Origin: Mobula hypostoma
Taxonomy: Eukaryota
DNA: 64,000 nucleotides
Reading direction: 5' to 3'
NCBI RefSeq assembly: GCF_963921235.1
Contig: NC_086097.1
Coordinates: forward strand, 87,298,001 to 87,362,000
Part shown: positions 1 to 53,400 of the stretch, piece by piece
Layout of the letters: each line of letters opens with the position of its first letter
How positions within the stretch are numbered: the first letter of the stretch is position 1
Translations under genes and position numbers: made by a program
Notes under the pieces: generated by a model
The model's input: the letters and a program-made list of their open reading frames with translations, nothing else
Database searches by the model: none
What the model was told of the DNA's origin: nothing

Positions 1-247
1 TTGCACTCCAATCAGATTCCTTCTTCTCCAACCCTTCAGCTTTCCCACCTACCTGGCTTCACCTATCACCTTCTAACTTGTCCTCCTTTCTCTCCCCCAA
101 CTTTTTATTCTGGCATCTTCCCCATTCCTTTCCAATCTTGTTGAAGGGTCTCAGCCCGAAACAATGTTGTCTGACCTGCTGAGTTCCTCCAACATTTTGT
201 CTGTGTTGCTCTAGATTTCCAGCATCTGTAGAATCTCTTGTCTTTAT
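1..247 (+). mobile_element. Penelope-like element 3' end (pLTR), degenerate
   Basis: Pyrimidine-rich tract, decayed hammerhead (ttgttgaagggtctcagcccgaaac) and tail gatttccagcatctg; homologous to the end of the PLE at 7781-9646. Confidence 0.75.
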
Positions 248-3112: not shown

Positions 3113-5948
3113 TTATGTTTTGTAGCTGCAGAAATTAATTGAAAGAAAAATACAGGTGCCCAGGAAAACATGTCTACTTAGTCTTACATACGAGGGGTGA
3201 TTGATAAGTTCGTGGTCTAAGGTAGAAGGAGTCAATTTTAGAAAACCAAGCACATTTATTTTTCCTACATTTACACACTTAGTCCAGCAGTCGTAGAGCA
3301 TACGGATCCCTTCTTTGTAGAAGTCAGCGTCTTGGACCTCCAGAAGTGGTCCACAACAGGGCTGAATGATAAGTTCATGGCCTAAGGTAGAAGGAGATAA
3401 GTTATTAACTTCAAACTTTCTGCATTATGACTCAAAGAGTTGAACTGCACGTGCCTGTAACAAGAGCTGTATAACTCATCTCCTTCTACTTAAGGCCACG
3501 AACATATCAATCACCCCTGCGGTGGGCCACCTGGAGGTCCAAGACACTCTTGTTACATGCACGTGCAGTTCAGTTCCATGAGTGATAATGCAGAAAGTTT
3601 GAAAATAGCTCATCTCAGGCCACAAACTTATCAATCACCCCTGCTGTGGACCACTTCCACAAAGAAGGGATCCGTATGCTCCACGACCGCTGGACTAAAT
3701 GTGTACATGAAGGAGGGGACTATGTTGAAATATAAATGTGCTGGGTTTTCTAAAATTGACTCCTTCTACCTTGGGCCACAAAGTTATCAATTGCCCCTCG
3801 TAAGTGAGGCACTCACTTATGATGTGGTGGCATAATTACGTATGCCATTCACATACTTCTTACATATAACTCATGATGAATTATGTAAACAAAGAATGTT
3901 TAATCAAACAATATATTTATAATATTACTTAAATATCACTGAAATATTAAATACACTACCCTCCTCTCTGCTTAGCTATAAAATCCAACTCAGTATACAG
4001 TGCATCTCATCTCAAATATGTAATGTATTGCTCTCTTGTCATATATATATACATACACACACATAAAATCACACATACATAGTTTGGATTACTATTTAGA
4101 CACCATAGTAAATTTTAAATTGTCCCATTCATACCTAAAAATTTAGTCACTGTGGAGAATTTCCTACTCTTGTGAGATAACAATCTTTCCTGACAAAGTG
4201 GTGTGGGGGTCTCTGCTTAACAGAAGAGACTTGTGGATGCGAAACAATCTCAGATTCTGGAGCCTCCTCCATGGTGGTTGTAGGAGTCAGCTCGAGTGTT
4301 TCAGGAAGTGGTTCTGACAGCTCTGGACATCTTTCTTCTCTAACAATTGACTCTGCTCTTCTCAACTGTTCAATGTGTCATCTCCACATGATATCAGATG
4401 CAATCTCCACTGTGTGGGAGAGTAGTCTGGCTCTGTCCTTAATCTTTCCTAGTATTTACTTTTATCATCATTGTAGTCCCTCACCAGGACTGCTTGTCTA
4501 GGAGTGAAACATTGAAATTCTTTGTATGAGGAGCCCTCAATTCGTCTAATCAGTTTGTCGTGCATACTCCTTCTCAGACTGGGTTTGTGGAGATCCAAGT
4601 GTGAGCATGAGGGACAACCCAGGAACAGCATAGCTGCTGAGTTGTGGGTCATGCTGCGTTGTGATATGCAAGGATGAAATTGGGTTCTTTTTCAGTGTTA
4701 ATGTAGTGTGTAATGCTGACATTCCTCACAGTATGTTCTTTAGACTCTGGACAAATGTTTCTGCCAAGCCAGGTGGTACAGTGCAGATATAATATGGCCT
4801 ACTCCATACATTTTCATGGATAACTGAAACTGTTCTGAAACAAACTGTGGTCCGTTGTTACTGACTATGTGCTCTGGAAGAGGCTTTTTAACACATCAAT
4901 AGTGTACAAGCCTGTAGTGGAGGCTGTTGGGAACACTTCTGGCCATGTTGTAGCTGCATCCGCTACTATCAAGAAACTTGTGCCCGTGAATGGACCAGCA
5001 AAATCCACATGAATCCTCAGGCAGGGCAATGCAGGCCAATCCGAAGGATGGAGAAGTGCTATTCTTGGCATCTTCTGGACATCTGTTTGGCATCCCAAAC
5101 AGATGCTTTAAATCTGGAGCAACACACACAAATGCTGGAGGAACTGAGCAGGTCAGGCTGCTGAATCTGCTGATCTATCCCAGACCATCAGACATAGTGT
5201 CCTACATTATGGCATCTTCTGGAAGTTTCTCCTTTAAACCTGTATTGGTCTTGTGTATGTGAGCCCCTGCCATAATGGTAACACAATTTGTTTAGCCAGG
5301 CAGGTTTCAGTTTAGACGCTACAATTTTGTTCACATGAGCTTTCATTTCCTGGCTGCAATTCAATTGTGTCTCTGGCTTCTGTTTCAATTAATACAGCAA
5401 TTTCAACTGCTCTTTTAAATATGAATTGTGCTTCAGTTTGGAGCCATTTTCGAATGCTTTCTTGCGAGATTCCACAAACTAAATGTTCTCTCGGTGCATC
5501 ATTAAACTCATCACTGAACAGAAAATGTTGAGACAATTTCTTCCATTCCATGTTAGCTGAAACTGATTCTCCTCCCTTTTGTTTCCATTTATGAAACTTA
5601 AAGGTACTGCAGTCAACAGTGGTTTCAGTTCTAAATGTTCCTGCGTTACGTTTACAAAATCAGCAAAACTTATTTCTCTGGTTTAGCAGTTAAACTTCTA
5701 AACAAACTCTATGCTTTTCCACCTATTACACTCAATAACACTGGCACTCGGTTTTCGTTGGCTATTTCATTTTCTTCAAAATACTGCTCTATTCATTCAG
5801 TATACACCATCCAGTTATCTGCTGTGAATCAAACATGTCTATATTTCTGATGTGTTCAGTTACTTCTGCTTTTTTAATTTATTATTTTATCACCCAATAA
5901 TCATTGATTATGAATCTGTGAAACATCCATTTTCGACCTTTTCTTTAC
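3113..5948 (-). mobile_element. Gypsy family A deletion derivative (gag fragment, integrase fragment, PPT, 3' LTR)
   Basis: Integrase RIHVDFAGPF; gag remnants (HLVCGISQESIRKWL, zinc-knuckle remnant); purine tract near 3959-3970; LTR 3113-3958 interrupted by a MITE; no 5' LTR seen. Confidence 0.85.
3191..3800. mobile_element. Mariner-type MITE
   Basis: TIRs cgaggggtgattgataagttcgtgg... / ...aagttatcaattgcccctcg, flanked by TA at 3189-3190 and 3801-3802. Confidence 0.9.
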
Positions 5949-7780: not shown

Positions 7781-9646
7781 GGCAACACACACAAAATGCT
7801 TGTGGAATGCAGCAGGCCAGGCAGCATCTATAGGAAGAGGTACAGTCGACGTTTCAGGCCGAGATCCTTCATCAGGACTAACTGAAAGAAGAAATAGCAA
7901 GAGATTTGAAAATGGGAGGGGGAGGGGTAGGGGGAGATCCAAAATGATGGGAGAAGACAGGAGGCAGAGAGATAGAGCTAAGAGCTGGAAAGTTGATTGG
8001 CAAAAGGGATACAAGGCTGGAGAAGGGAGAGGATCATGGAGCGGGAGGCCTAGGGAGAAAGAAAGTGGGAGGGGAGCCCAGAGGAAGATGGAGAGCAGGC
8101 AAGGAGTTATTATGAGAGGGACAGAGAGAAAAAAGAGAGAAAGAAAGAAAGAGAAAGTGGAAAAATAAAAAATAATAAATAAATAAGGGATAGGGTAAGA
8201 AGGGGAGGAGGGGCATTAACAGAAGTTAGAGAAGTCAATGTTCATGCCATCAGGTTGGAGGCTACCCGGACGGAATATAAGGTGTTGTTCCTCCAACCTG
8301 AGTGTGGTTTCATCTTGACAGTAGAGGAGGCCATGGATAGACATATCAGAATGGGAATGGGACATGGAATTAAAACGTTTGGCCACTGGGAGATCCTGCT
8401 TTCTCTGACAGACAGAACGTAGGTGTTCAGTGAAACCATCTCCCAGTCTGCGTCAGGTCTCGCCAATATATAGAAGGCCGCACCGGGAGGACCGGACACA
8501 GTATATCACACCAGCCAACTCACAGGTGAAGTGTTGCCTCACCTGGAAGGACTGTCTGGGGCCCTGAATGGTGGTGAGGGAGGAAGTGTAAGGGTAGGTG
8601 TAGCACTTGTTCCGCTTACAAGGATAAGTGCCGGGAGGGAGATCGGTGGGAAGGGATTAGGGGGACGAATGGACAAGGAAGTCGCGTAGGGAGCGATCCC
8701 TGCGGAAAGCAGAAAGGGGGTGGAGGGAAAGATGTGCTTGGTGGTGGGATCCCATTGGAGGTGGCGGAAGTTACGGAGAATTATATGTTGGGCCTGGAGG
8801 CTGGTGGGATGATAGGTGAGGACAAGGGGAACCCTATTCCTAGTAGGGTGGCGGGAGGATGGGGTGAGAGCAGATGTGCGTGAAATGGGAGAGATGCGTT
8901 TGAGAGCAGAGTTGATGATGGAGGAAGGGAAGCCCCTTTCTTTAAAAAAGGAGGACACCTCCTTCATCCTGGAAAGAAAAGCCTCATCCTGAGAGCAGAT
9001 GCGGCGGAGACGGAGGAATTGTGAGAAGGGGATGGCATTTTTGCAAGAGATGGGGTGGGAAGAGGAATAGTCCAGGTAGCTGTGAGAGTCCGTAGGCTTC
9101 TAGTAGACATCAGTAGATAAGCTGTCTACAGAGATAGAGACAGAAGAGACAGAAAGATCAAGAAAGTGGGGGGGGCGGGGGGGGAGGTCTCGGTAGTGGA
9201 CCAGGTAAATTTGAGGGCAGGGTGAAAGTTGAAGGCAAAGTTAGTGAAGTCAACGAGCTCAGCATGCGTGCAGGAAGCAATGCCAATGCAGTCGTCAATG
9301 TGGCGAAGGAAAGTGGGGGACGGATACCAGTATAGGCTTGGAACATGGATTGTTCCACAAAGCCAACGAAAAGGCAGGCATAGCTGGGACCCATACGGGT
9401 GACCATGGCTACACCTTTAGTTTGGAGGAAGTGGGAGGAGCCAAAGGAGAAATTATTAAGAGTAAGGACTAATTCTGCTAGACGGAGGAGAGTGGTGGTA
9501 GAGGGGAACTGGTTAGGTCCGGAATCCAAAAAGAAGTGGAGAGCTTTGAGACCTTCTTTGTGGGGAATGGAGGTATATAGGGACTGGATATCCATGGTGA
9601 AAATAAAGCAGTGGGGGCCAGGGAACTTAAAATCATTGAAAAGCAT
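7781..9646 (-). mobile_element. Penelope-like retroelement, 5'-truncated: RT, GIY-YIG endonuclease and pLTR
   Basis: FTMDIQSLYTSIPH...QTKGVAM.TRMGPSYACLF (PLE RT); my translation near 8400-8545 gives FTCELAGVIYCVRSSRCGLLYIGET*RRLGDGFTEHLRSV (GIY-YIG); frameshifted. Confidence 0.92.
7844..7879 (-). ncRNA. Minimal type-I hammerhead ribozyme motif in PLE pLTR
   Basis: Minus strand AGTC-CTGATGA-AGG-atctcgg-CCT-GAAA-CGTC-GACT: stem I AGTC/GACT, intact core, stem II AGG/CCT, palindromic ACGT, GUC cleavage triplet. Confidence 0.8.
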
Positions 9647-11020
9647 GCTAGCTTTTGAACTTAAGGGGTAGAAATTTGGCAGCAGAATAAATCATACCTA
9701 TGTATGTATGTTGCAGTTTTGTTTGAATCCAATTTTTCCCCACAACTCATTCCAGGGGACTCTGAAGCAAGGAATTCTGTGAAATAAACCATATTTTACA
9801 AAATCTTTCAAAATCTTTAAATGTACACCATTTATGCCTCACCATTCATTTTCTTTACAAAAATTGCAAAGGCAATTTGATACACATTGATTTTACTCTG
9901 GGAAAGTAGAATTATGGCTAATTGCAGAGGAAACAAGTAAAAAAAGAAACATGTTACTTCAGGGACTATCCTGGAACTGGTACATTCAGAGGAGAGCTTA
10001 AAATGGCCTGGTCCCAAAGACAAAGTGAAACATGAAGATGTCGGAACAAAATGTACTTGATGAAGGGGATCCATCACTCATGAAAACTGACATTTAATTA
10101 GAACTTGCATGAGCAAAATGAGGTTCTGAGTGAATGTTTAACTGGAATTGCGAAAAACTGGCACGACTGGTGAGGTAAAAAATCAGAAAATGCTGAAAGC
10201 TCTCATCAGATCAGGCAGAAGGCTTAGAGAGAGAAACAGAGTTGAAGTCAAATACTTTATCCAGAACAGGGAAATTGAGAAAACCAGTTGGTTTTAAGCT
10301 ATAGTGGGTGACCGATATGGCCAAAGGAATATCTCTGATAAGGTAAGGCCTGATTAAATCAAGTAATTCCAATGTTTGTGGAGCTTTCTGGTTAATAGAT
10401 TAATAGGACCATAAGATATAGGAGCAGAATTAGGCCATTTGGCCCATCGAGTCTACTCTACTCCAACTGGATCGCGGCTGATCCAATTTCCTCTTAGCCC
10501 CAATCTCTTGCCTTCCCCTCGTATCCCTTCATGCTCTGACCAATCAAGAATCTATCAAACTCTGCCTTAAATATACATAAAGGCTTGGCCTCCATAGCTG
10601 CCTGTGGAAAAGAATTCCCCAGATTTGCCACTCATCTCTGTTCTAAAAGGTCGTCCCCTTATTCTGAGGCTGAGTCCTCTAGTCTTAGGCTCTCCCACCA
10701 TAGGAAACATCCTCTCCACATCCATTCTATCAAGGCATTTCACACTTCGATAGTTTTCACCCCTCATTCTGCTGAATTCCAATAAATACAGTCCCGGAGC
10801 TATCAAATGCTCTTCATATGACAAGCCATTCACCCCAGAATCATTTTTGTAAACTTCCTTTGAACCCTCTCCAGTTACAGCACATCCTTTCTAAGATAAG
10901 AGGCTCAAAGCTGCTCACAATACTCCAAGTGAGACCTCACCAGTGCTTTATAAAGTCTCAACATTACATCCTTGCTTTTATATTCTAGTCCTCTTGAAAT
11001 TAACGCTGACATTGCATTTG

Positions 11021-11755
11021 CTGTTCGGAGGTCAGAGCTTAGTCAAGATGGCACTAAACAGCAATTCCTTTCCTTGCATCTTCAGAAACAGCTCTATTTT
11101 CATCTTTAATATCTCTAATTTTCCCTTTCAGCGTTCTTTTGAAGACCCTGACCTGGAGCTTAACATTCTTTGCAGGAATGGGACCCACTCCTGGGGCGTC
11201 ACAACTGGCTGTTATCTGACATGACGGGCGCAGCCTAAGAGTTTGGCTCGCCTTTGGAGGGCTAGGATCTCGAGACTCTGGAGACGGGCGGATCAGAGGT
11301 TGGTGTCCCGGATCGGTGTGTTGTGGGAGCTAGAAGATCTTTGGCTGTGTACCCAGAGATCTGAGAACTTTGGGTACGAAGCTCAGAGAAAGCAACACAA
11401 CAGGCTTTTAACATCGTAAGCCAGCGAGTTTGTTTGTTATGTCTCCCCTCTCGCTGTGAAATGGAGACATCTCTTTCTTCCTTTTTAGGGAGGGAGAGAA
11501 CCTGTGCTATGTCGAATACCAGGTGAACTCATAGTCTTTGGAGTACTGCAAATCTGTGCCTTTGCTGTTGCTTTTGCTGCACGCTTGAATGCTCGGTGGT
11601 GGGTGCTGATGCTTTTTTTTGCTGCTGGGGGGAGGGGGGATTGTTGCTTGCTGCCGCTTATGTGGAGGGAGGGAAGAGAGCTGGGGTGGACTTTGGGGTT
11701 CTGACATTTAACTGTCATTCATTTTTTGGGGCACTCCTCTGTTTTCATGGATGGT
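11021..11755 (+). mobile_element. Non-coding SINE-like or non-autonomous retroelement inside CR1
   Basis: Interrupts CR1 between ttgcatttgc and tcttcctcaccacag; has caagatggc near its 5' end; no credible ORF. Confidence 0.55.
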
Positions 11756-11853
11756 CTTCCTCACCACAGACTCAACCTGCAAATTAACCTACAACACACA
11801 TCAAAGTTGCTGGTGAACGCAGCAGGCCAGGCAGCATCTCTAGGAAGAGGTAC

Positions 11854-11889
11854 AGTCGACGTTTCAAGCCGAGACCTTTCGTCAGGACT
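11854..11889 (-). ncRNA. Minimal hammerhead ribozyme motif (intact core)
   Basis: AGTC-CTGACGA-AAG-gtctcgg-CTT-GAAA-CGTC-GACT. Confidence 0.75.
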
Positions 11890-11900
11890 AACTGAAGAAA

Positions 11901-11936
11901 GGTCCTGACAAAGGGTCTCAGCCTGAAACGTCGACT
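11901..11936 (+). ncRNA. Minimal hammerhead motif with core mutation
   Basis: GGTC-CTGACAA-AGG-gtctcag-CCT-GAAA-CGTC-GACT; core G8 changed to A. Confidence 0.6.
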
Positions 11937-13880
11937 GTACCTCTTCCTAGAGATGCTGCCTGGCCTGCTGCGTTCACCAGCAACTTTGATGTGCATTGCT
12001 TGAATTTCCAGCATCTGCAGAATTCCTGCTGTCTGCAAATTAACCTTTAGGGAATGCTGCACAAGCACTCCCAAGTCCTCTGCACCTCAGTTTTTTTTGT
12101 ATTTTCTCTCCATTTAGAAAATAGTGAACCCTTTTATTTCTTCTACCAAAGTGAATGACTATACTCTTCCTGACACTGTATTCCATCTGCCATTTCTCTG
12201 CCCATTCTCCTAATCTAAGTCCTTCTGTATCCTCTCTAAGTCCTCAAAACCACCTGCCCCTCCACCTATCATCATATTAGCTACAAAATTTGCAACAAAG
12301 CCATCAATTCTATCATCCAAATCATTGACATATAATGTTAAAAGAATCGGTCCCCACACAAGAACCCTATGGAACACCACTAGTCACCGGCAGCCAATCA
12401 GAAAAGGCTTCTTTTACTCCCACAATTGCCTGCTGCCAATCAGCCACTGCTCTATCCATGCTAGAATCTCTCCTGTAATACTATGGCCTTGTAACTTGTT
12501 AAGCAGCCTCACGTGTGGCACCTTGTCAAAGGCCTTCTGAAAATCCAAGTACACAACATCAACGAATTCTCCTTTGTCTATCCTGCTTGTTATTTCTTCA
12601 AATATTTCCAACAGATTTGGACTAATGAAGGGTTCCCAAGTGAAAGACAGAGAAAGATAACAAAGAGACATGTTAAAGCTGTACAGCACAGCCCAGAGTC
12701 AAAAGCAGAAATGCTGGAAATGCCGAGCAAATCAGACAATGTCTGAGGAAAGAACTAAGCTGAGTTTGTATTACAGATTAGTAACCTTGCAACACTTCTG
12801 GCTGGTTCTGATATGAATGGAAAAACTGGAAGATGCCCAACTTTAATGATCTCTTGCAGGCTGATGTCTGCATCATTGAGGCTTTAAATGTGCTTTGTCA
12901 GCTCCTGTGGGTAGGCCACATTATTTTCATGACTCACACCAGACTTCTGAAACAGATATTCTGCCCTGAGTTCCATTATGCAAGCGATTATCAGATGGAC
13001 AGAAAAGGCAATTCAAGAATTTTCCTACGAAATTCAAGAATGTGCCCTATTGCCTTATTGAACACTCTTGCACTAACTAGTCGAGATGACAGCAATTTAT
13101 CCTTATCTCTATGGGACTGTCTGAGAAGTAGGAGAAGAATATGGCTGATGATGCAATTGCATACTCACACCACAGTGCATGCTGGGAGATTGTGTTCACA
13201 GCACATTAGTGGATTGAAATTTACAGACAGCATAGATCCAGTTTCCTACTGTGTGCACCCAAAGGGCAAGGCTCAGGGCCAACAACATGCATCGGAGATA
13301 TTTGTTCTGATCTTCAATGCGCAGAGAAAATAAGCAAATTTGAGACAGGCACATTAATGAGGAGTCTGGCAACTATCTATCAACTGACTTCTCTGTTTAC
13401 CATACGAATATAATGTGTTGTCTTGGGAACTATTAATACAAAGATTAAACTGTCAAAATCATAAGTTATACTGATGTGATACTATAATCTCATGCCAACA
13501 AGCATTACTGCTCTATATTAACCTAACTCTGTAACTTTTGTGGACATGCTTGAACCACTTAGCATTTCTTGTGATTTTTTTCAGCGGTTTTCCCCCTTCT
13601 GCTGAACCTGAATCCATCAATAAGATGATCTTGAAATTAATTTGAGAAATGAATACATTCTCCCATAGGTAAGCCCTGCTACTGATTCTCTTGTTTCTCT
13701 GCTGTTGGATCAACTTTTCCTGCTATTTCTCTCTAACAAATGCATTCCAGCTGTGCATATTGCTCACATTCCTATGACTGGAAAACTTTGAATTGAATTG
13801 AAGAATTAAATATGTGTATTATTGCAGGTGACACTTCAGGAGATAATGCTGAGGCTATAAAGTGATCCACGAATGATGCA

Positions 13881-13962
13881 ACACACATACAAAATGCTGG
13901 AGGAACTTTTTTGTGTTGCTCAGATTTCCAGCATCTGCAGATTTTCTCTTGTTTGTGATTTG
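13881..13962. mobile_element. Tiny Penelope-end insertion with inversion
   Basis: Inverted acacatacaaaatgctggaggaact followed by direct tail; TSD tccac(g/t)aatgatgca at 13866-13880 and 13963-13977. Confidence 0.75.
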
Positions 13963-16339
13963 TCCACTAATGATGCAGTCCATTTGTAATAACTATCTGG
14001 AATTGTTTGGTTTATTTTAGAAAAAAAACTGCTGTTTTATAATTATCAACATTTCAAAAAAGTCTATGCTGCACCTGAAATTGTTTCTGCTAAATTTTCA
14101 GTATACAAGGTAAATAGTGTTTATTAACACTGAATTATCTTCATGTCCATTGATCATCTCTGTAGCAATAATAATACTACATGATGTTTAAAATAATATT
14201 TATTGGCTCTAATGGTATAATCTATGTTAAGTGATGATAGAATCTTTTAGCAGAGATGAAAGAGGAAGAAAGAGTTAATGAGAAAAAAATGGAGGAAGAG
14301 CCAAAATAATTTTCCCTGTTTCAAAAATGCATTCTTATTACAGTAAGGTAGTATCAAGAATAGCAGAGGCCTAATTTAGTCCATTTTCTTGCATAAGTTG
14401 GTTGTTTTCCTTTTAATATGCTACCTTCATAGCTTTTGTGGTTGCAACTTGGACCAGGGTCTGGACACAACTGTTCCTGGCAGTGCATAAGTTCCTTAGT
14501 GTTCAGCTGCAGGAGTTAAGTCTTGGCCTTCCTTACTACTGGCTTTCAGTGTAAGAGGATCAAGGTGTCGAACTCCACTCTCCATATGAAAGTTTCTATC
14601 TTCCTGGTTTTGCATCAAGAGAAGTACAACTCCAGCTGACCTGGATTACCAACCCATGGGTGTGAGGACCAACTTTTCAATATGGTCATGGACGCACTGA
14701 TCTAATCTTCCTGGGAGTGTTGGCATGTAGTCAGAAAGCCCTCTGTCCATAAGTAGTTTTTCACTTCTTCATTAGAGTTACCTGCCCCTCAAACAGGCGA
14801 GGAGAACTAATTATGAACTATTATAGGTCTTGTGTCTTCCTTTTCCTAATCTGAAGCATTACATATATAGAATATAGAAAACAAAACTCATAGTTGTAGA
14901 AAGGCAAACTGGCCCGTCAGTTCGAGACATCCCCATCCCACCACACCTCCACCTACAGCCCAGCATTCATTTTCCACATAATCTAATGGAAGAGGAAATA
15001 AAGCAGCCAGCCAGCAACATTCCATAACCTGTCAGTCTCTGGGAAACGAGCAGCCTGTCATCTAAGAATTCTATACTCTTGAGCTTAACTCATTTCCCAA
15101 TAATTTCCATGACAGTCATAAAAAAAAGATTAAGAACCTGAAACCACAGCAATGCTTTTATTACATGGCATTTGTGACTCCCTGAAGATAAGCAATGAAG
15201 ATTTCAAGTGGCTCATATCAGTGTTTTAGAAAAGCATCAGATCCCAATGGATCCTTGTATAATTCTTCTCAGATAACATGTAAACACCAGCCAATTTCAC
15301 ATGGGCCCTTTCCTATCAGGATCACGGAGAAGTAAGCAGGAAGGTGGTTGATTCTAACATCAAAGAATAAACAATGTACTCCTATGTTGTTGTCCGCAGA
15401 TGATTGGCCGTCACTTGCCAGTGCAGGTCAGGCACCAGGGCTGAAAATTGTAATAAATATAGTACTATAAATGCACAACAGGCAGCATCTGAAGTGAGCG
15501 AAGGTTGACATTTCAGGTTGGTGACATGAAATAATGATATTTGATAGCTTAAGGAGTGCTGTCCACAGTTTCTTTAATGTAAGGAGAAACGTAAGCTACC
15601 ACAGAATTGATGGCAGCCCACAGAACGTGAATAAAATGCATTATTCCATGCAAATTTCATTTGTTACGGTAGCTGTAATGCCATAATCTTTGCTTGAGCT
15701 CTTGGGCCAGATGCATCCAGACCAATAGCTATTGCAGTCTTAAATTAATCTAAGATTCTGTGACTTGGGAGATTACTCACCAGATCAGTTCCTAAGAATT
15801 TCAGGACTTCTTAATGATGCAGAGATCAGATGCATGCCATGTGAGAATTCATTAACTGCATCTTGCTGTCCACAGCACTGTGCCCTGGGAGCACGGAAGA
15901 CCTTGCTGTCGACTGAAGTTGTTGGGCAATGCCACCATGGTCCAGCAGGGGCTGCAATCATACAACTTAAATCGAGCACCACATATACTGGAAACACAGA
16001 GCAGAGAAGTCAGCATCTGTTGAGAAAACAGTTTTATGTTCCAATAAAGCCATTCACAGAACTGTGAGAAATTACAGAGGAGAACAATCAGCAAGGAACA
16101 TAACAATGTAAAGATGGAGATATACACACAGAAACATGTACAATGACCTAGTAAAGGCAAAATGAGAGATAAGAGATGATGACATGTCTAAATTGGAAAT
16201 AATATAATAAAGCATCTATAGATATAGAATGATTATACAGTATAAGTTGGGGATTGAATCAATTTCAATGGAGTATCTGACTGGCACATGCATTGCTAAC
16301 ACTCATTGGAAGCTTTCAAAGTAGACACTTTGGGACTAC

Positions 16340-16763: not shown

Positions 16764-17264
16764 TTGGGACTACAACAAAGAGCCCTGACTCCATGCTTCG
16801 GGAACACTGAAAAGTCCTACCCATCTCTTCAGGCACCTGCTGACCCATGTGTATTGAAATCTGTGAGATCTTATCTGTCATATCACAACACATAAAACTG
16901 GGATAAAGCTTATCATTCTTGATTTCAAGGGACAGCCTAAGATGCAAGAAGTAGGTATCCACCAAAGGAATTCAGAAAGCAATTCACTTATTTGACCTTC
17001 ACGAAGAAATGCTGTGTGAAATGTTTGTTCTCCAATTAACATGTCCTCTCTGAAATGTTCTAACCACAATAGCAGCCTTCAGCTTCCGTACGAATACTTT
17101 CACATGCAGATTCCAACACTTGGCCAGCCTCTATTCACTCTGTGTATCTCAGCTGGTGGCTTATGTTAAACCAAGCTGTGATACGTATTCATAATCACTT
17201 TCCTTTCTTATCCGACAATTGCACGGTCAGGTTTCTGTTCTTATGGTAAATAGAATAGAGCTTT

Positions 17265-17480
17265 CACAAAATGCTGGTGGAACACAGTAGGCCAGGCAGC
17301 ATCTATAGGAAGAGGTACAGTCGAGGTTTTGGGCCGAGACCCTTCGTCAGGACTAACTGAAAGAAGAGATAGTAAGAGATTTGAAAGTGGAAGGGGAAGG
17401 TGGAAATCCATCTGTGTTCCACCAGCATTTTGTATGCGTTGCTTGAATTTCCGGCAACTGCAGATTTCCTCGTGTTTGCG
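17265..17480. mobile_element. Penelope-derived inverted mini-insertion with degenerate hammerhead (17319-17354, -)
   Basis: Inverted pLTR then direct end and tail; TSD tagaataga(g/a)cttt at 17251-17264 and 17481-17494. Confidence 0.85.
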
Positions 17481-17544
17481 TAGAATAGAACTTTATTCTT
17501 AAAATAGAATCAAACTTTAAAATAGAACAGAACTTTAACTTAAA

Positions 17545-18178
17545 AGGTGGGAGGAGAAGATGGCAGTGTGACGCTGCGCGCGCAGATCTCCGGTGAAATG
17601 ATATTGTATCTGTTATATAGGAGAGGTGAACAATTCTGATTTGATGGAGATAGACGTGAGAAGCACAGAGGAACATCTGGAGAAATTTCTGAAATGCCCG
17701 GTTCGCTGACGCTGCTACTGTACGATCGAGAATCTCCGGAGGGAAGGCCCCAAAATCCTCGGCTTTGCCTGCTGTTGGCTACCAAGGCTGGGGTCGAAGC
17801 GTTCGGCAGAGATGCTGCTCGGTACTCGGTGTCAGAGGGCTGATCGGAGCTCGAAGTTTTTCAGATGACTCAGAGTCGGACTGTGGTCGGGCATGGCAGG
17901 GAGAGTTTTCTTCCTTCTCCCGTCTGCGTGAGATGTGGAACTTTCGAGAGACTTTGAACTTTTTTGCTGTGCCATGGACTGCTCTTCATCAAGTTATGGT
18001 ATTGTTGCACTGTTGTAACTATATGTTATAATTATGTGGTTTTTGTTAGTTTTTCAGTCTTGGTCTGTCCTGTGTTTCTGTGATATCACATCGCAGGAGT
18101 ATTGTATCATTTCTTAATGCATGCATTACTAAATGACAATAAAAGCGGATTGCGTATCCTCATAATCTAATCTAATCT
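17545..18178 (+). mobile_element. Non-autonomous Rex1-type SINE-like element, copy 1
   Basis: 5' ggaggagaagatggc, 3' aaatgacaataaaag...(taatc)n; second copy inverted at 39330-39970. Confidence 0.75.
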
Positions 18179-19670: not shown

Positions 19671-21260
19671 GGCTACATCCACACTGAACCAGATAAATCC
19701 GTAACCGAAGCTTTTTCTCTTCGTTTTGACTCTACGTCCACACTGAAACTGCGTTTTCCTCCCCCGTAAACGGAGCTTTTCAAAAACGCTCTCCAGAGTG
19801 AATAAATCTGAAAACGCCTAGTGGCCAGTGTACCGTGTACGGGGTAACTGGCTCTTTTTAAAACCGCTGTCATGACGTGCCGGAACAGATGGTGGTGCAG
19901 CGCGGCATTTCATTGTTTTCTTGAACGCAGCCTCCAACATCACAACAACAATGGCGGACAGCTTCATGCATGTGTAGTTTACTTTATTGTCTATGTTAAT
20001 TTCATCCTCCCACACAACCCAACAATTTCAGGACAGACGGCAACGAGACTGAAGCCAGAAGAGTTAGAAATGTACTCACCAAATACTTTGACCCATAGCT
20101 TACTGAATACTGAATAAATAAGTATACTCACTTTGCCCTGTTTTCTGTCCTTGCTTGTATGAAGGTGGTTCACCTATTTATGCAAGTACTTCTCTGACAG
20201 TAGATGTGTAACAGCCTAATGTAACATTGTATGGAAATACAAGATAACACTGATGCAGACATGTTTTATACATTTAACAAGGTGTTTTATTAATATATTG
20301 CTAGTGTAAACATTCAATAGATGCAATTGTCACTACTTCCAAAATGTCATTTTTAAGTGGTAGCTTATGTTTGGCCTAGACATGAAAATGTTAAGGCCAA
20401 AAAAGGAAAATTGTAAGTTTCACTTTTACTCAGGTAAAAATAAAATCACTTTTGCCCAGTAACTTGTTTTATTGCACAAGTTAAATACAGCAAAATAATA
20501 CAGAAAGACATGGCAAAAGTAAAGGCAATCAAATGAGGTAACAGCATATTTCACTTTTGCCCAGTAACAAGCCTTATTACATTTAGTTGTAGCTGTCGTC
20601 CCTTTCATCAGTGAAGAGACTATGACTGTAGGAAATGTTTCCAGGGTGACCCCTCTGTGGGTGTGGGGAAGATGTTGGTGGGGCCACCCAGGGGTCTGTG
20701 TGTCCGTACGTGTAGCTGTTGTAGCGGCTGTGAGGCTGGTATTGTGGCAGTGAAAAGTACTGAGGGAGTGCCATCATATTCCTCATCATTGCAAATCCCT
20801 CTGCAACGGAGTAAGTCAGTTTTTCAATGTTCGTCATCATCCGGGTCATACTATCCGTGAACTCCCTGTCGGTTGCCTCCATACGCTCCAGTATTTGTTT
20901 TTTCAGTTTTAAGTCCTCCTGTGTGAGAGCCAAAAGCTGTCCGTTGTTTGACAATTTCCTTTTAAATTTTTCTAGTCTGTAACTGGACAAACACGCACCA
21001 AGTCTTTCACGGTGAGATTCGACACCAAACATGTCGCAGCCATCACCTGTTGCTTGGTCCAAACTGTCAGAGTCGGGCGTACTCGTCGAAGCAGGTGAAT
21101 TCTGTAGATGTGCCCTGCGCATGCCCAGTAGGAGGAGATTCGCCCAAATACACGTTTTAATGAGGATGGAGGTATTTTCAAAATCACCTGGTGTGGAAGC
21201 CTGTCGTTTTTACACGAAACCGGCATTTTCAATATTATCCGGTCTAGTGTGGACGTGGTG
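19671..21260. mobile_element. PIF/Harbinger non-autonomous DNA transposon
   Basis: TIRs ggctacatccacact / agtgtggacgtggtg; TTA TSD at 19668-19670 and 21261-21263; gaaaacg subterminal motifs. Confidence 0.85.
20583..21030 (-). pseudogene. C-terminal coiled-coil part of Harbinger Myb/SANT-like accessory protein
   Basis: Open frame RERLGACLSSYRLEKFKRKL...QEDLKLKKQILERME...IEKLTYSVAEGFAMM inside the TIRs; N-terminus absent. Confidence 0.65.
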
Positions 21261-21524
21261 TTAGAGTGCATTCTGCTTTTCACAGACGTATGTTTGCTTT
21301 CAAGTAACACAAGTTGCCTTTAAGTGCTTCTTAACTCACACAAAAGTTACACCTTGCTGAAGTGGCAAGGCAATGAGTCAGTTCACCAGCAATCATGCAA
21401 AATCAGAATGCTTCCTGCAGATGAAGCAATGAGTTGGTTGTAAAAGAAAATAGCAACTATTGTGCCTGCTTTGGAGGCTATCCAATTTATCCAGGAACAT
21501 TAAAGTGAAATGCTGGTGCCTCCC

Positions 21525-39329: not shown

Positions 39330-39970
39330 ATTAGATTATTTTGAGATTAGATTATGAAGAATCACAGTCCTCTTTTATTGTCATTTAGTAATGCATGCAT
39401 TAAGAAATGATACAATATTCCTCCGATGTGATATCACAAAACACAGGACAGACCAAGACTGAAAAAACTAAAAAAAAAACACATAATTATAACATATAGT
39501 TACAACAGTGCAACAATACCATAACTTGATGAAGAACAGGTCATGGCACAGTAAAAGAGTTCAAAGTCTCCCGAATGTCCCACATCTCACGCAGACGGGA
39601 GAAGGAAGAAAACTCTCTGCCATGCCCGACCACAATCCGACTCTGAGTCGTCTGAAAACTTCGAGCCTCCGATCAGCCCTCCGACACCAAGTACCGAGCA
39701 CCATCTCTATCCGAACGATTCGACCTCAGTCTCGGTTGCCAGCAGCAGGCAAAGCCTAGGATTTTGAGGCCTTCCCTCAGGAAGATTCTCGATCGCCCAG
39801 TAACAACAGCAGTAAACCGGTGTTTCAGAAATTTCTCCAGATGTTCCTCTGTGCTTTCATGTCTGTCTCCATCAAATCAGAATTGTCCACGGCCGCTATT
39901 TAACGGATGCAATACCATTTTCACCGGAGAGCTGCACGTGCGCAGTGCACTGCTACCTTCTCCTCCCGCC
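39330..39970 (-). mobile_element. Non-autonomous Rex1-type SINE-like element, copy 2
   Basis: Reverse-complement match over the full length of 17545-18178. Confidence 0.8.
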
Positions 39971-42545
39971 TCTCTCATCTTTCAAAAATATGTTTACTTC
40001 ATCTTTAACTAGCACAATTAATCTGACCTGCACAATCCTCCAGAATGGGGAACTCCAGAGATTCATCAGCACTTGCATGAGGTCCTTAAGCACCTCAGCT
40101 GCCTAATCTTGAAATCAGTTCCTCTTATTCAGGATACTCCCACAGTGGTTACTGCAGAACTTTTGTGATTTTGTATTTGAACAATCTGGTTGCAAATGTA
40201 CAAGACGTATAACACCTGCGTGGCGTTTGTCTTATCTCATGTCACTGGTCACCACACTCTTTATGAGAAAATCAAATTATGTAGTGCTACACTAGGTCCT
40301 AGAAAGCCCGGAAGTTCCAGGTATCAGAAGAAGGCAGTGATTGAAAACACACACATCTGGAGGTAAATTTATTTATAAAAATAGCAATATATACAAAATA
40401 TTGACATGAATAAGAACAATTCAAAATTCCATCATCCTGTTCCAAAGTTCAGATATCAACGGGAAAAAAACCCCTTTTAGTTAAAATCAGTGAGGTTCAT
40501 TAGAATAGCCTTTATTATTTCAGTTTCTCTAACTAATTAGATCTAGAGTTATTCCCTATTTAAAAGTTTACATACTAACAATTGCCTTTCTATTTATCCC
40601 TATTTAGTTGAATTCCTTTTCTTTAATATTGTGGTTAACTTCAGTTTCAGTTCCAGGTCAGTATATCTACAAATTCAAATTCAATCCCAAATATATATGT
40701 TCCAGAAAATTAAACTCAGACCCCTCGAATGAAAAATAAACTTAGACATCCAACCGTACTAAATCCTCCACGTCAATAAACATTTTGTTCCCGTGCTGGT
40801 TCTTCAATCTTGGGTGGCTCGCCATCTTGTTTCTTGGATGAAATTGTTGACCATCCACAGAAAGTCAATTCACAATACTTTCACAAAAAAAAACCTGACC
40901 TGCATACAACAGGATTACAATCCGTAAATTCTTATACACATTGTATTTTCCATTTCAAAATTACTCAATATCTCATTGTCATTTCCAAATATTTCTCAAT
41001 TACAGCACTCCTGAACATATTTCACACACAAATTATACACTTGGAACAGTAAAAGTGTTTTAACTTACCAAATCCCTTGGTATGATTTAATACAACTAAT
41101 TCCCAATTACAAGGTGGGGATCTTGACACTTGCTGCTGTCAATATTGTCTCGTTATTATTGCTACTTGTTATATCAATGTATTACTTGCTTTATCAACAT
41201 TGTCTCTCCTCCAGGGGTTTCACCCTGAGGATTTTCAAGTAAGTAGGGCAGAGATAGTCACTACTAATTCCACTTTTAACAGTTTATATCTTTAGTTTCT
41301 TATAGTTTCCTGTGTTTCTCTCACTTGTCTGCGCCTGCGTCAGCCACACCTCATTCTCGCATAACTTTTTTCCCCAAGTTCTCTTTTTTAAACAAAAATC
41401 AGTTAACCGCAGTTTCATCCCTCCACACATGAAGCTTCCTGATGTTACATTTTTGGGTTTAATTAACCTGGGTTACATTCTTCCCCTCTGAATTTATGCA
41501 ATTCCCTTTGCATACGGCTACAGGTTGCACTATAATTGGTTTGGGATGTTCAACATATGTGAATTCTGGAAGTGACTCTACAATAGCTAAACTCAGATCT
41601 AGGAAAAGGGACTGAACTATTGTCACCAAAGGACATCCTAGCTCGAGATATGTAGGAGTTCTCATTTTTTTTTCTGGTTTAGAAGACCTTCTGAGTTCAA
41701 GCTCTTCTTTGTGAGAATTCTCTTTTATCGTGTCTTTTCAAGTTAACTCTTTATCGCATGTCTCTTTCTTGTTGAATCTCAGAATCATTTGGGATTGACG
41801 AGGTTTCCAGACTTCTTTCATCAGATAGGATTCACTGATTACACATCTCTCATTTGTTGTTCCTTTCACTGGGTTTTTTTCAGGACTCACAGGTAAGTTA
41901 CTTTCTACAGTAGATTCCTCTACATCAGAACTTTCATTTCTTTAGGATTTCAGCACTGCGGCTAGAACCGGAGTGGTTGTAGATGGTTGATTTGGGCTTG
42001 GATTGGAGCCCACATTTCTTTTGTGTAACTGTTCATGGATTTCTTGACTCTTAGAAGATTTGTCTACAATGTCAGGTGTTGATCTGACGTAACAAACCTC
42101 ATCCCTGTCCTTTTCAGAGTCTATTTGATTTTCTTCCTCTTCAACTGACTGTTCATTCTTTGTACTGTACTCCTGCAAGTTCTGTACTTGTGACCAGGGA
42201 CTGGAGAAAGTTGTTTATTGTCTTCAGAAGGAAGAAATCCACAAGGGATCAATAGATCATGGGCCCAGACTGGTTCTCAGGACATACCTTGTAGACAGGC
42301 AGATCACCAGCTTGGCTCATCACTACAGACTATTTCTTCCCATTCATCAGCAAGTTTGTTTTTAGCTCATAGGTGCACATTCCTTACGCGCACTCGGTCT
42401 CCTTCTTTCAGTTCTGAAGCTGTCACATATCTGGTCTTGTTTTGGTCTTCCATTCTCTGTGAGTCCCCCTCAAGGTGAGCTTTTAAATTTTGTATATGCT
42501 GAGAGTGAGATGTACCATGTTTGTCTTTTAAGGGTAGTCTGAAAG

Positions 42546-47600: not shown

Positions 47601-48159
47601 ATAATTTGTATTAAAGAAAAGAACTGCTGGGAATGCTTAGCATGTCAGACAGCATCATTGGAAAGTGAAATTAGGTTAATATTTCAACTGGACAACATGA
47701 TTTACATAGAACTATTAATGTAGAAAAATGACTATTTATTTTAAAAAGTTGTTCTGCCATATTTCTCATATAGTTTCAAAAATATATTTTGTTGTAACTT
47801 TTATCCCTAGAAACCTTTCACAGAAGTAAGTAGAACGAAACACATGGTGCAAGTGGAAACACCCACAGAGCTTTAATTGTCAAGCCATACTATCACTTAC
47901 CTATGAGAGCAATGCCTAATTAATGAGATCAGTGAACAGCACAGGTGTCTGATAGCTCTCTGTACAGGAAAACTGAATTAAACCTTCCTCACTAAGAACC
48001 TTACATTATATTTCCTTATATTTAAGGTCTTCACTAGAGCCCCACTAACTTCCATAAATTGTTGGAAAGGCCAGGCCAAACTTGCAGAGTCCACGTTTAG
48101 AAATCCTGAAAGATTGCAGCACTAGTTAATAAGGCAGATTGAAAAGCAAATGAACTTTG

Positions 48160-50423: not shown

Positions 50424-53400
50424 GCATAAGACTTTAAGACATAGGAGCGGAATTAGGCCATTCAGTCTGTTGAGACTGCTCCACCATTCCATCATGGCTG
50501 AACGCGGATCACACTCAACCCCATACACCTGCCTTTTCACCATATCCTTTGATGCCATGACCGATCAGGAAACTATCAAGTTTGCCTTAAATATACCCAC
50601 AGACTTGGCTTCCACAGCTGTCTGTGACAAAGCATTCCAAGATTCAGTACTCTCTGGCTAAAAAAAAATTTGTCCTTACCTCTTTTCTAAAGAGTCACCT
50701 TCTATTTTGAGGCTGTGCTCTCTAGTTCTGGACATCCCCACCATAGGAAACATCCTCTCCACATCCATCTTATCTAGTCCTTTCAACATACGGTAGGTTT
50801 CAATGAGATCCCCCCAATGTCCTTTTAAATTCCAGTGAGTACAGGCCCAAAGCTGCCAAACATTCCTCATATGATAACCCCTTCATTCCCAGAATCATCC
50901 TTGTGAACCTTCTCTAGACTCTCTCCAATGAAAACTCATCCTTTCTGAGATATAGGACCCAAAACTGTTGACAACATTCCAAGTGTGGCCTGACTAGTGT
51001 CTACAAGTCCTCGGCATTATCTCCTGGCTTTTATGTTTAATCCTCCTTGAAATAAATGCCAACATTGCATTTGTCTTCTTTACCACAGACTCAACCTGTA
51101 AATTAAGCTTCTGGGAGTCTTGCACAAGGACTCCTAAGTCCCTTTGCATCTCTGATGTTTCAATTTTCTCCCCATTAAGATAATAGTCTGCACTTTTGTT
51201 CCCTTAATCAAAATGCAGTAGTATACATTTTCCAACACTGTGTTCCATCTTCACATTTTTGCCCATTCTTCCAATTTGTCTAAGACTTGCTGCAATCGCA
51301 TTGCTTCCTCAGCACTACCTACCCCTCCAGCAATCTTTGTATCAACTGCAAACTTTGCCACAAACTATCAATTCCACTATCTAAATCAATTGACAAATGA
51401 TGTGATAAGTAGTAGTCGCAATGCTGACCTCTGAGGAACACCACTAGACACTGCCAGCCAACCGGAAAAGGCCCCCTTTATTCCCACTCTCTGCCTCCTG
51501 CCTGTCAGCCATTCCTCTATCCATGCCAGTATCTTCCCTGTAATGCCAGAGGATTTTATCTTGTTAAGCAGCCTCATGTGTGGCACCTTATCAAATGCCT
51601 TCTGAAAATCCAAGTAAATGACATTCACTACCTCTCCTTTGTCCACTCTGCTTGTTAATTCTTTGAAGAATTCCAACAGTTTTGTCATGTAAGATTTTCT
51701 TTACAGAAACCATGCTGACTTTGATTTCATCATTAGCCTTCAAGTACCCCAAAACCTCATCCCTAATAATGGACTCTTTGCACTGTCTGCATTTGTACCC
51801 AATCATTGGCTTGTCCTTCCTTGCGTTCATATTACATCCATTATCTACTTGCAAACCTACTGGCTCATCCTCAGGTCTATCATAACTGAATCCCATCACC
51901 CCCCCCCCCCACCATATTAGTTTAAACCACTTTGAACAGCTCTAGCAAACCTTCCCACAAGGATATCGGTCCCCCTCGGACTCAAGTGCAATCCGTCCCT
52001 TTTTGTACAGGTCACACCTGACCCAGAAGAGCTGCCAATGATCCAGAAAGCTGAATCCCTACTCCCTGCTCCAATTCTTCAGCAACGCAATTATCTGCCA
52101 CCTCATTCTATTCCTATCCCCACTCTCACACAGTAATTCCAAGATCACTACCCTTGAGGTTCTGCTTCTTAACTTCCTTCCTAACTCCCTGTGGTCTGTT
52201 TTCAGGGCCTCTTTCCTTTTTCTACCTATGTCGTTGGTACCAATATGTACCACAACTTCTGGCTGCTCACCCTCCCTTTTCAGGATACCGTGGATATATC
52301 CAGAAACATCGCAGATTGTGACAGAACAAATTGGCAATGCTAATTCTCCTGCTACCCTTACCACTTTGCCCAGTTGGTCGCTCCTTCTCATTCTGTGCCT
52401 GGTCTAATTGCCCCAGTGGTTCACACACTTTGATATCCCATTCTGCAGTTCTTGGGAGTTCACCATTTACACACCCCAACAGTAAAACAATCACTAGCTT
52501 GGCTAATCAATACAATCCTCTCAGTTAATGTGCTCTACTGGTTTATAATTCATAATAATAAGGATTCTAGACACAAGCATTACAGTTCCACGTGTTTTCA
52601 TTCACACCTTTACATTGGGTTGTAAACAGCAGAACGGACCCAAAAGACTGTAGGAACAGCTTGGGGTGACCTAAAATAATGCCTGGGTTAGTGAGAGGAG
52701 GCGCACCACACCCTATGCAGGCAGATTTAAGGCCCCCAGTTTGGCTTTGCTGAGAGGTGTGGTGGTTGAATTTGACAGTTGGTGAATAGATATATTGGAA
52801 AGTTAACGACAAAGTGTGTCATGCAGAAGGCCTCTGTATATTTGTATATTTTTGTACATTTTGTTTTCATTTGGCTATTTGTAACTACCTTTTTCTTCAC
52901 AACTTTTGGACAGCTTTTGCTTTTTTTCCCACCTGGCACTAAATAAAAACCCCTTTGCACCAACGTGCTGTTGCAGTTTACCATCTGTTTTTGTTTCAAC
53001 TGGTGACCCTCTAAAGGCATGCTTACCCACATCTGATAGCAAGCTGTGACACAGACACTGGCACCTGAGAGGCAAACTACCATCCGTGTTTCTTATTCGC
53101 GTCCACAGAATTGTCTACCTGTCCCCTGACTATAGAGTCCCCTATTACTGCTACCCTCCTCTTCAGTTCCCTACCCTGCTGAACCACAGAGCCAGACACA
53201 GTGCCACAGGCACAGCTGCTCTTGCTTCCACCAGGTAGGTCGAGCCCCCCAGCAGTTCTCAAAATGGAGTGCTTATTGTTAAGGGGGATGGCCACAGGGG
53301 TGCTCTCCACTATCTGATATTTTCCCTTCGCTTTCCTGATAGTCACCCATTTATCTGTCTCCTGTTGCCTTGGGGTGACTACCTCCTTGTAGCTCATCTG

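What the first reader, a model, noticed from the sequence alone, without database searches (positions are those of the whole stretch)
11777..12046. Foldback PLE insertion carrying two hammerhead motifs on opposite strands
Seen: 242-bp insert between perfect 14-bp TSDs, made of about 95-bp inverted arms and a 13-nt spacer. Each arm has a minimal hammerhead; the minus-strand core is intact and the plus-strand one has G8A. Known: PLE pLTRs carry minimal hammerheads with palindromic stem III that cleave as dimers, and PLE insertions often have inverted 5' pLTRs. Inference: a protein-free ribozyme-bearing unit whose transcript from either strand would fold into a long hairpin sequestering the ribozyme. 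It could be a dsRNA/siRNA source or a non-autonomous family.
Basis: partly seen in the sequence, partly recalled or inferred. Interest (0 to 1): 0.7.

Follow-up and report, generated by a model that had tools for sequence, protein, structure and literature searches.

The report
Head-to-head Penelope retrotransposon stub
This 242-base hairpin is two back-to-back copies of the ribozyme-bearing end of a Penelope-like jumping gene, likely laid down in one insertion into an old LINE of a probable ray; the layout is already described and both ribozyme motifs are damaged and predicted to be buried in the hairpin, so it is likely an ordinary fossil.

Summary
In detail: a 242-bp insert between perfect 14-bp duplications, 97-nt arms 94% complementary, 13-nt spacer, one minimal hammerhead per strand, G8A on the plus strand. 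A paralogous LINE copy shows the empty site. The arms are the end of an endonuclease-bearing Penelope-like element; a longer copy with RT and GIY-YIG remains lies 2-4 kb away. Only the right arm carries the ~34-nt tail. This is the published inverted-copy-plus-tail layout (PMC3846280, PMC8557442). The window holds three such insertions with three different junctions, and public contigs show further different joints, which argues against a copied foldback family. The minus-strand core letters are intact, but stem II has lost G10.1-C11.1 and is predicted unstable; both cores are paired in the hairpin. Likely origin: both cut target strands primed reverse transcription and the two cDNAs were joined (inferred). 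No whole genome or small-RNA data were available. The scan has noted this kind many times in this genome and others. Ordinary.

The parts
11777..11790 (.). left target-site duplication (14 bp), part of the host LINE
   Evidence: single copy in paralogous LINE 51070-51175
11792..11896 (-). left arm: tail-less, 5'-truncated copy of the PLE 3' end (may extend to 11901 if the apex is a blunt join)
   Evidence: aligns to the end of the long PLE copy at 7783-7890
11854..11889 (-). minimal type I hammerhead motif; core letters intact (11885-11858), extra A after A9, palindromic ACGU in place of stem III, stem II weakened (A10.1-U11.1, G.U)
   Evidence: motif features as in PMC4209133
11889..11901 (.). 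13-nt apex between the arms; mostly left-arm element sequence. 11897-11904 is an exact 8-nt reverse complement of 11873-11880 (possible snap-back copy)
   Evidence: (I1, I3)
11902..11998 (+). right arm: 5'-truncated sense copy of the PLE 3' end
11901..11936 (+). second minimal hammerhead motif, G8A at 11910 and C11.1U, both CpG-type transitions
11999..12032 (+). 34-nt PLE tail, present on this arm only
   Evidence: matches the tails of window copies at 459-549 and 17409-17480
12033..12046 (.). right target-site duplication (14 bp)
10392..12619 (-). old host LINE (CR1-type by recalled peptide motifs, not tested), interrupted by an unrelated ~733-bp insert (11022-11754) and by this stub
   Evidence: 69-74% matches to 50426-51073 and 51096-51684; loose ends at 11754-11756 and 11790
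7783..9645 (-). longer, broken, 5'-truncated copy of the same PLE family: part of RT, linker, GIY-YIG endonuclease, pLTR with hammerhead; no tail
17251..17494 (.). second two-armed PLE insertion: 14-bp TSD (1 mismatch), long left arm, short right arm plus tail, different junction
13866..13977 (.). third two-armed PLE insertion (related subfamily): 15-bp TSD (1 mismatch), ~25-nt left arm, very short right arm plus tail, no hammerhead, different junction

Best explanation
The insert is two head-to-head, 5'-truncated copies of the 3' end (pLTR) of an endonuclease-bearing Penelope-like element between one 14-bp target duplication, likely made in a single abortive insertion and likely dead since. 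Shown: the duplication and its empty site, the identity of both arms with the end of an RT/GIY-YIG element, the tail on one arm only, and different junctions in sister insertions. Inferred mechanism: the element's protein nicks both target strands 14 bp apart; each 3' end primes reverse transcription on element RNA, one at the inner start site (no tail, left arm) and one at the outer start site (with tail, right arm); both stop after about 100-130 nt, just past the hammerhead; the two cDNA ends are then joined, possibly after the left cDNA folded back on a 4-bp local hairpin and copied 8 nt whose last 3 nt match the other end. The two hammerheads are passengers: the motif lies 67-94 nt from the element end, so any arm over about 100 nt carries it. 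In head-to-head geometry the antisense arm is always transcribed before the ribozyme arm, so any read-through RNA would bury the core. Confidence about 0.85 for the one-off fossil and about 0.55 for the two-primer route.
For: TSD and empty site (213-302 contigs per run in 4 of 4 runs continue from 11790 into LINE sequence, table 7). Parent element in the window, whose endonuclease region is 87% identical to a Mobula protein bearing YIDD, CX4CX2C and a GIY-YIG-type motif. 3 of 3 two-armed, TSD-flanked insertions in the window have the tail on one arm, TSDs of 14, 14 and 15 bp, and different turning points: left arms reach about position 104-108, 143 and 25 of the element end, right arms about 96, 25 or a little more, and under 25. 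In run X5, six different arm-to-arm joints are listed (11819>11911, 11846>12002, 11856>11911 with 1-2 contigs each; 11813>11996, 11839>11951, 11862>11939), among 15 of 725 joints and 12 of 419 inserts shown. At the apex, contigs continue into ordinary element sequence (88, 142, 98 and 29 loose ends before 11902 in X1, X2, X5, X15). Decay pattern: G8A and 11920 are CpG transitions; CpG counts 5 and 3 in the two arms. Cores predicted paired on both strands (unpaired probability <=0.01 for the minus core). Literature: inverted 5'-truncated copy plus one-sided 30-40-bp tail is typical (PMC8557442, passages; PMC3846280, passages); min-HHR pairs 100-700 bp apart on opposite strands were seen in Schistosoma (PMC4209133, parts 1-2 of 4); a PLE protein nicks and extends both strands, is predicted dimeric, starts RT at two sites that bound the tail, and does not need HHR cleavage in vitro (PMC11167929, parts 1-2 of 4).
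Against: No whole genome was held, so junction uniqueness was not counted in this assembly. The runs used hold only 0.51 and 0.40 of the locus words and may be related species. Two short X2 contigs cross an apex at nearly the same place (11878-11928; 2 differences plus 2 gaps, and 5 differences; depth 11 and 28), so similar junctions exist; this may be a favoured turning point or a few descendants. All 6 arm differences lie at the arm ends, with 70 contiguous identical bases (post hoc P 0.002-0.006), which simple neutral decay does not predict well. The two-primer route is not stated for PLE inversions in the texts I read; PMC3846280 proposes self-priming instead. Pfam matches of the window's own broken ORF pieces are weak (E 0.21 and 0.11; none).
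Confidence: 0.78

Rival explanations
1. Same dead stub, different route: one cDNA (or an antisense transcript) folded back and self-primed, so the second arm is a copy-back of the first, as proposed for PLE inverted junctions by Arkhipova et al. 2013.
For: PMC3846280 (passages) reports palindromes at inverted junctions and reads them as self-priming. Here a local palindrome sits at the apex (13 nt, 92%; exact 8 nt), and 70 contiguous bases are identical between arms.
Against: The right arm runs 34 nt beyond the start of the left arm into the tail, which has no template in the left arm. The right arm has the family letter at 11913 and 11923 where the left arm has its own changes. The 8-nt apex match can also be read as left-arm sequence to 11901 with 1-2 changes and a blunt join.
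Confidence: 0.3
2. A non-autonomous foldback family: the whole 242-nt hairpin is transcribed and re-inserted by the PLE protein, with its ribozymes held silent in the hairpin.
For: It keeps the element end and tail where RT starts (PMC11167929); non-autonomous PLE derivatives exist (MRC1, PMC8557442 passage; retrozymes, bioRxiv 10.64898/2026.07.22.740005, part 1 and passages). Two X2 contigs show a similar, not identical, apex.
Against: Junction found once in the window; three window insertions, three junctions; six other joints in X5; apex loose ends lead into ordinary element. A ~-190 to -202 kcal/mol duplex would also bury the RT start region (inference).
Confidence: 0.05
3. A co-opted or incidental dsRNA source: read-through transcription makes a ~90-bp hairpin that is diced into small RNAs against this PLE family.
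For: Predicted near-perfect duplex on both strands; the 70-nt identical core would suit it; PLEs give rise to mostly antisense small RNAs in Adineta (PMC3846280 passages, there piRNA-like, 25-32 nt).
Against: No promoter, host gene or transcript is shown for this locus; the ORFs listed for the window look like mobile-element debris (read by eye). The geometry is a by-product shared with sister insertions, so it needs no function to exist.
Confidence: 0.07

Closest known systems
Complex insertions of EN+ Penelope-like elements: inverted 5'-truncated copy, one-sided tail, TSD (Pen2a_Av and Pen2 of Adineta vaga, PMC3846280, passages read; general scheme in PMC8557442 Fig. 2 legend and text, passages read)
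   Same: Head-to-head inverted pLTR copy, tail of 30-40 bp on one end only (34 here), one TSD around the whole unit, palindrome at the inverted junction.
   Different: Here both copies are cut to about 100 nt, so no ORF lies between them; TSD 14 bp versus 8-10 bp in the Adineta examples; host is a probable ray.
Minimal hammerheads of metazoan PLEs (Cervera and de la Pena 2014, PMC4209133, parts 1-2 of 4 read; Lunse et al., PMC5785218, not held, known only through the review PMC6765202, passages)
   Same: Type I, no monomer stem III, palindromic 15.2-16.2, extra base between 9 and 10.1, 4-bp stem I; opposite-strand pairs 100-700 bp apart already reported in Schistosoma.
   Different: The two cores here are only 19 nt apart; one has G8A without U3 compensation, the other has lost the conserved G10.1-C11.1 pair; being on opposite strands they cannot form the dimer within one transcript.
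PAc (Poseidon of Anolis carolinensis), the PLE characterised in vitro (PMC11167929, parts 1-2 of 4 read)
   Same: Hammerhead in pLTR; tail bounded by two RT start sites; AT-rich target (this TSD holds AAATT); both strands cut and extended.
   Different: The ray element has a CX4CX2C linker, which PMC8557442 assigns to Neptune/Nematis and says is absent in Penelope/Poseidon; the paper parts read do not model inverted junctions.
Non-LTR retrozymes (bioRxiv 10.64898/2026.07.22.740005, part 1 of 5 and passages; PMC7229834, search listing only)
   Same: Non-coding, hammerhead-bearing, PLE-related.
   Different: Retrozymes are head-to-tail tandem repeats with same-strand hammerheads; this is a single head-to-head unit.

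Membership tests
EN+ PLE insertion with inverted pLTR | Arms derive from the end of an RT + C-terminal GIY-YIG element | tested here: met
   Arms 86-89% identical to the end of 7783-9645; its translation shows RT and endonuclease motifs; 87% identical ray protein has YIDD and a GIY-YIG Pfam hit at E 4.6e-4, below the curated cut-off
EN+ PLE insertion with inverted pLTR | Inverted 5'-truncated copy adjacent in head-to-head orientation | tested here: met
EN+ PLE insertion with inverted pLTR | 30-40-bp tail at one end only | tested here: met
   11999-12032 on the right arm only
EN+ PLE insertion with inverted pLTR | Target-site duplication with an empty site | tested here: met
   14/14; empty site shown on a paralogous LINE and in family contigs, not on an orthologous allele
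Neptune/Nematis clade of PLEs (parent element) | CX2-5CxxC linker before GIY-YIG, and two Cys inside the GIY-YIG core | tested here: met
   P0001 has both; the window copy has one residue changed in each; definition from PMC8557442 passages
Neptune/Nematis clade of PLEs (parent element) | RT phylogeny places it in Neptune | not tested
   No reference PLE sequences were at hand; no tree built
PLE minimal hammerhead ribozyme | Core C3UGANG8A, extra base, GAAA, palindromic 15.2-16.2, UH, stem I | tested here: met
   Met for the minus-strand motif; the plus-strand motif fails at G8
PLE minimal hammerhead ribozyme | Stable stem II with G10.1-C11.1 | tested here: not met
   Minus motif A-U, G.U, +0.7 to +2.1 kcal/mol; plus motif G.U at 10.1-11.1
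PLE minimal hammerhead ribozyme | Cleaves as a dimer | not testable with these tools
   Predicted cofold of the isolated minus motif is not the hammerhead dimer, but the folding model cannot represent that geometry well
Non-LTR retrozyme | Head-to-tail tandem units, each with a same-strand hammerhead | tested here: not met
   Single head-to-head unit
Non-autonomous foldback family (MITE-like or SINE-like) | Several loci share the same internal junction with different TSDs | tested here: inconclusive
   1 of 1 in the window; other junctions differ; no genome-wide count possible

The most novel reading that the evidence does not exclude
The 242-nt hairpin is itself a mobile, protein-free unit: a PLE-derived foldback RNA that keeps its hammerheads locked by its own antisense arm, is re-inserted in trans by the PLE protein, and doubles as a dsRNA trigger that silences its parent family. 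Not excluded because no assembly-wide junction count or small-RNA data were available, two contigs show a similar apex, and the arms share a 70-nt identical core.
Probability: 0.05. Interest if true: 0.6.

Novelty: new member of a known kind. Interest (0 to 1): 0.14.

Why it matters
As one locus it matters little: it is the shortest form of a described PLE insertion layout. Its modest value is mechanistic. How PLEs make inverted pLTRs is called undefined in PMC8557442, and short two-armed stubs preserve both outer ends and the junction within 250 bp. A catalogue of such junctions from ray genomes could decide between two-primer insertion and self-priming, and would help annotation by stopping these stubs being called MITEs, miRNA precursors or new ribozyme elements.

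Tried and rejected
Whole-genome junction count: no genome held. Rfam: no hammerhead family matched at E<=1; 3 chance-level hits elsewhere. Sequencing runs: no RNA holder listed; X15 is only guessed to be RNA and nothing on expression is drawn from it. No listed contig bridges this apex with 31 or more letters on both sides in X1, X2, X5 or X15 (32 of 23,357 pieces shown, the longest kept; longest 51 positions); this is absence of cover in runs that may be other species, from filtered contigs, and is no proof. No listed piece showed this locus with its own flanks (32 of 204,613 shown), so age and presence in relatives stay open. Summed depths were not used as copy numbers. Metagenome scan with an 18-nt arm motif: 89 loci, 0 of 89 with an alignment of 30 nt or more to the insert or parent: chance hits. 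Pfam on two long ORF pieces: 0 of 2; on three shorter pieces only sub-threshold hits. TSD search found none for 7783-9645, 459-549, the 134-241 stub (one poor 8-mer) or the 733-bp insert. The constrained-fold energy for the 17 kb copy was invalid (core motif changed) and was not used. My first guess of Poseidon clade was dropped after the linker motif was seen. MITE/DNA transposon rejected: arms are PLE ends, the unit is asymmetric and the TSD is 14 bp. Literature: 'twin priming' + 'Penelope' gave 3 papers, none on PLE inversions by listing; Penelope + hairpin + endo-siRNA + inverted repeat gave 3 reviews, listing only; Penelope + elasmobranch + transposable elements gave 4 papers, none describing this family by listing. 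These searches cover open-licence papers only; Arkhipova 2006, Lunse et al. and Repbase/Dfam entries were not seen, and no supplements were opened, so the family may already be named there. Sequence look-up of the apex in earlier scan notes: nothing; nothing near this place.

Full report
Observation. The sequence at 11777-12046 is as described. A perfect 14-bp direct repeat bounds a 242-bp insert; the arms 11792-11888 and 11902-11998 are 97 nt, 94% complementary, 13 nt apart. The RNA fold is -193.4 kcal/mol, z -26, 0 of 200 shuffles as good. The repeat is a real target duplication: the flanks without the insert align without a gap across the site to a paralogous LINE at 51070-51175, which has one copy, and 213-302 contigs per run in 4 of 4 public runs continue from 11790 straight into LINE sequence (table 7). 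That is a paralogous, not an orthologous, empty site.

What the arms are. Both arms match the end of a longer element at 7783-9645 on the minus strand (86-89%). Its three-frame translation shows broken RT, a Cys-rich linker and a GIY-YIG-type endonuclease. Pfam hits on the window's own pieces are sub-threshold, but the endonuclease region, read with X at two stops, finds 10 proteins at E<=1e-10 among 122 candidates, all from Mobula hypostoma or Hypanus sabinus, best 87% identical. That protein has YIDD, CX4CX2C and a GIY-YIG Pfam hit at E 4.6e-4. By PMC8557442 (passages) the linker points to Neptune/Nematis rather than Poseidon; no tree was built. The host is therefore probably a ray. The right arm continues for 34 nt into a tail that the left arm lacks and that other window copies share. 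Inverted 5'-truncated copy, one-sided 30-40-bp tail and TSD are the published layout of EN+ PLE insertions (PMC8557442; PMC3846280; passages).

One-off or family. The apex 21-mer occurs once in the window with up to 3 mismatches. Two other TSD-flanked two-armed insertions lie in the window, at 17251-17494 and 13866-13977 (TSDs 14 and 15 bp, 1 mismatch each). All three have the tail on one arm and turn at different places. Three or four further PLE-end pieces (134-241, 420-549, 5099-5161, and weakly 47622-47665) show one arm only. In public contigs, run X5 shows six different arm-to-arm joints among the few listed (15 of 725 joints, 12 of 419 inserts), which I read as other copies' junctions. 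On a 90-nt apex reference, contigs matching either arm run on into ordinary element sequence (table 7). Against: two short X2 contigs cross a similar but not identical apex at low depth; the runs hold only 0.51 and 0.40 of the locus words and may be relatives; no genome was available for a direct count. A family is unlikely, not excluded.

The hammerheads. A core scan of both strands finds three motifs in the window, two of them here. They have the PLE minimal features given in PMC4209133 (parts 1-2 of 4): extra base after A9, palindromic 15.2-16.2, short stem I. That paper already notes opposite-strand pairs 100-700 bp apart in Schistosoma and very low activity even as dimers. The plus motif has G8A; G8 is needed in the Anolis PLE ribozyme (G8C abolishes cleavage; PMC11167929), and A8 was reported only with U3 (PMC4209133). 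The minus motif keeps all core letters, but its stem II has lost the conserved G10.1-C11.1 pair and is predicted unstable (+0.7 to +2.1 kcal/mol against -2.3 to -3.7 for the less altered copy at 17.3 kb). In the full insert both cores are paired on both strands. Because the unit is head-to-head, the antisense arm precedes the ribozyme arm in either transcript, and the two motifs, being on opposite strands, cannot dimerise in one RNA. Two motifs need no special explanation: the core lies 67-94 nt from the element end, so two arms of about 100 nt carry two.

Mechanism (inferred). PAc protein cuts and extends both target strands, is predicted to be a dimer, starts RT at two sites that bound the tail, and does not need ribozyme cleavage in vitro (PMC11167929, parts 1-2 of 4). 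Applied here: staggered nicks 14 bp apart give the TSD; the top strand primes at the inner start (no tail), the bottom strand at the outer start (tail); both stop near 100-130 nt and are joined. The tail has no template in the left arm, which is hard for simple copy-back. At the apex, 11897-11904 is an exact reverse complement of 11873-11880, including a change found only in the left arm, and its last three bases are also the first three of the right arm. This fits a snap-back of the left cDNA that created a 3-nt overlap, but a blunt join at 11901|11902 with 1-2 substitutions fits too. The rival is self-priming, proposed in PMC3846280. A search for 'twin priming' with 'Penelope' listed no paper on PLE inversions (listings only, open-licence papers only). 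Earlier AI notes reached the same two-primer idea on other DNA; I had searched for it before seeing them, and they are not independent evidence.

Age and decay. Arms differ at 6 of 97 sites, about 3% each if identical at insertion; a perfect 14-bp TSD then has probability 0.41. Two differences are CpG transitions. All six lie at the arm ends, leaving 70 identical bases (post hoc P 0.002, or 0.006 if the adjacent pair is one event). CpG hot spots, gene conversion between arms or two template RNAs could explain it; unresolved.

Function. Nothing shows transcription or small RNAs; these could not be tested. The hairpin is a by-product shared with sister insertions.

Verdict. Interest 0.14.

Noticed in passing
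window 11022-11754: A ~733-bp insert splits the same old LINE just left of the finding; it is repeated in all four runs laid (part from 11450 only) and no TSD was found. Family not identified.
   Followed up: partly
window 11792-11998: All six arm-to-arm differences sit at the arm ends, with 70 contiguous identical bases (post hoc P 0.002-0.006); possible gene conversion between arms.
   Followed up: partly
window 11873-11904: Exact 8-nt reverse complement across the apex that includes a left-arm-only change; possible snap-back templated insertion.
   Followed up: partly
window 7783-9645: Broken Neptune-like PLE copy, 5'-truncated within RT, tail-less, no second arm or TSD found; a 6-bp inverted repeat lies at its truncated end (about 9640-9657); its hammerhead core letters are intact.
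   Followed up: partly
window 134-241: One-armed PLE stub of another subfamily with a ~22-nt internal deletion that removes the hammerhead cleavage site (alignment).
   Followed up: no
window 17545-18173 and 39344-39971: Two copies of a ~630-bp repeat, 88% identical, in opposite orientation; the first begins about 50 bp after the 17 kb PLE stub.
   Followed up: no
window 3183-3808: A ~625-bp stretch that matches its own reverse complement at 69%, like an old palindromic or MITE-like element.
   Followed up: no
window 20583-21319 (-), 57679-58515 (+), 62388-63616 (+): ORF fragments that look by eye like a Harbinger-type DNA transposon and Gypsy-type gag/protease and integrase remains (recalled motifs, untested).
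   Followed up: no
P0003, P0004, P0007: Ray proteins named as isoforms of host genes (divergent protein kinase domain 1C, mucin-2, chitinase domain-containing 1) contain this PLE's endonuclease sequence: exonisation or annotation artefacts.
   Followed up: no
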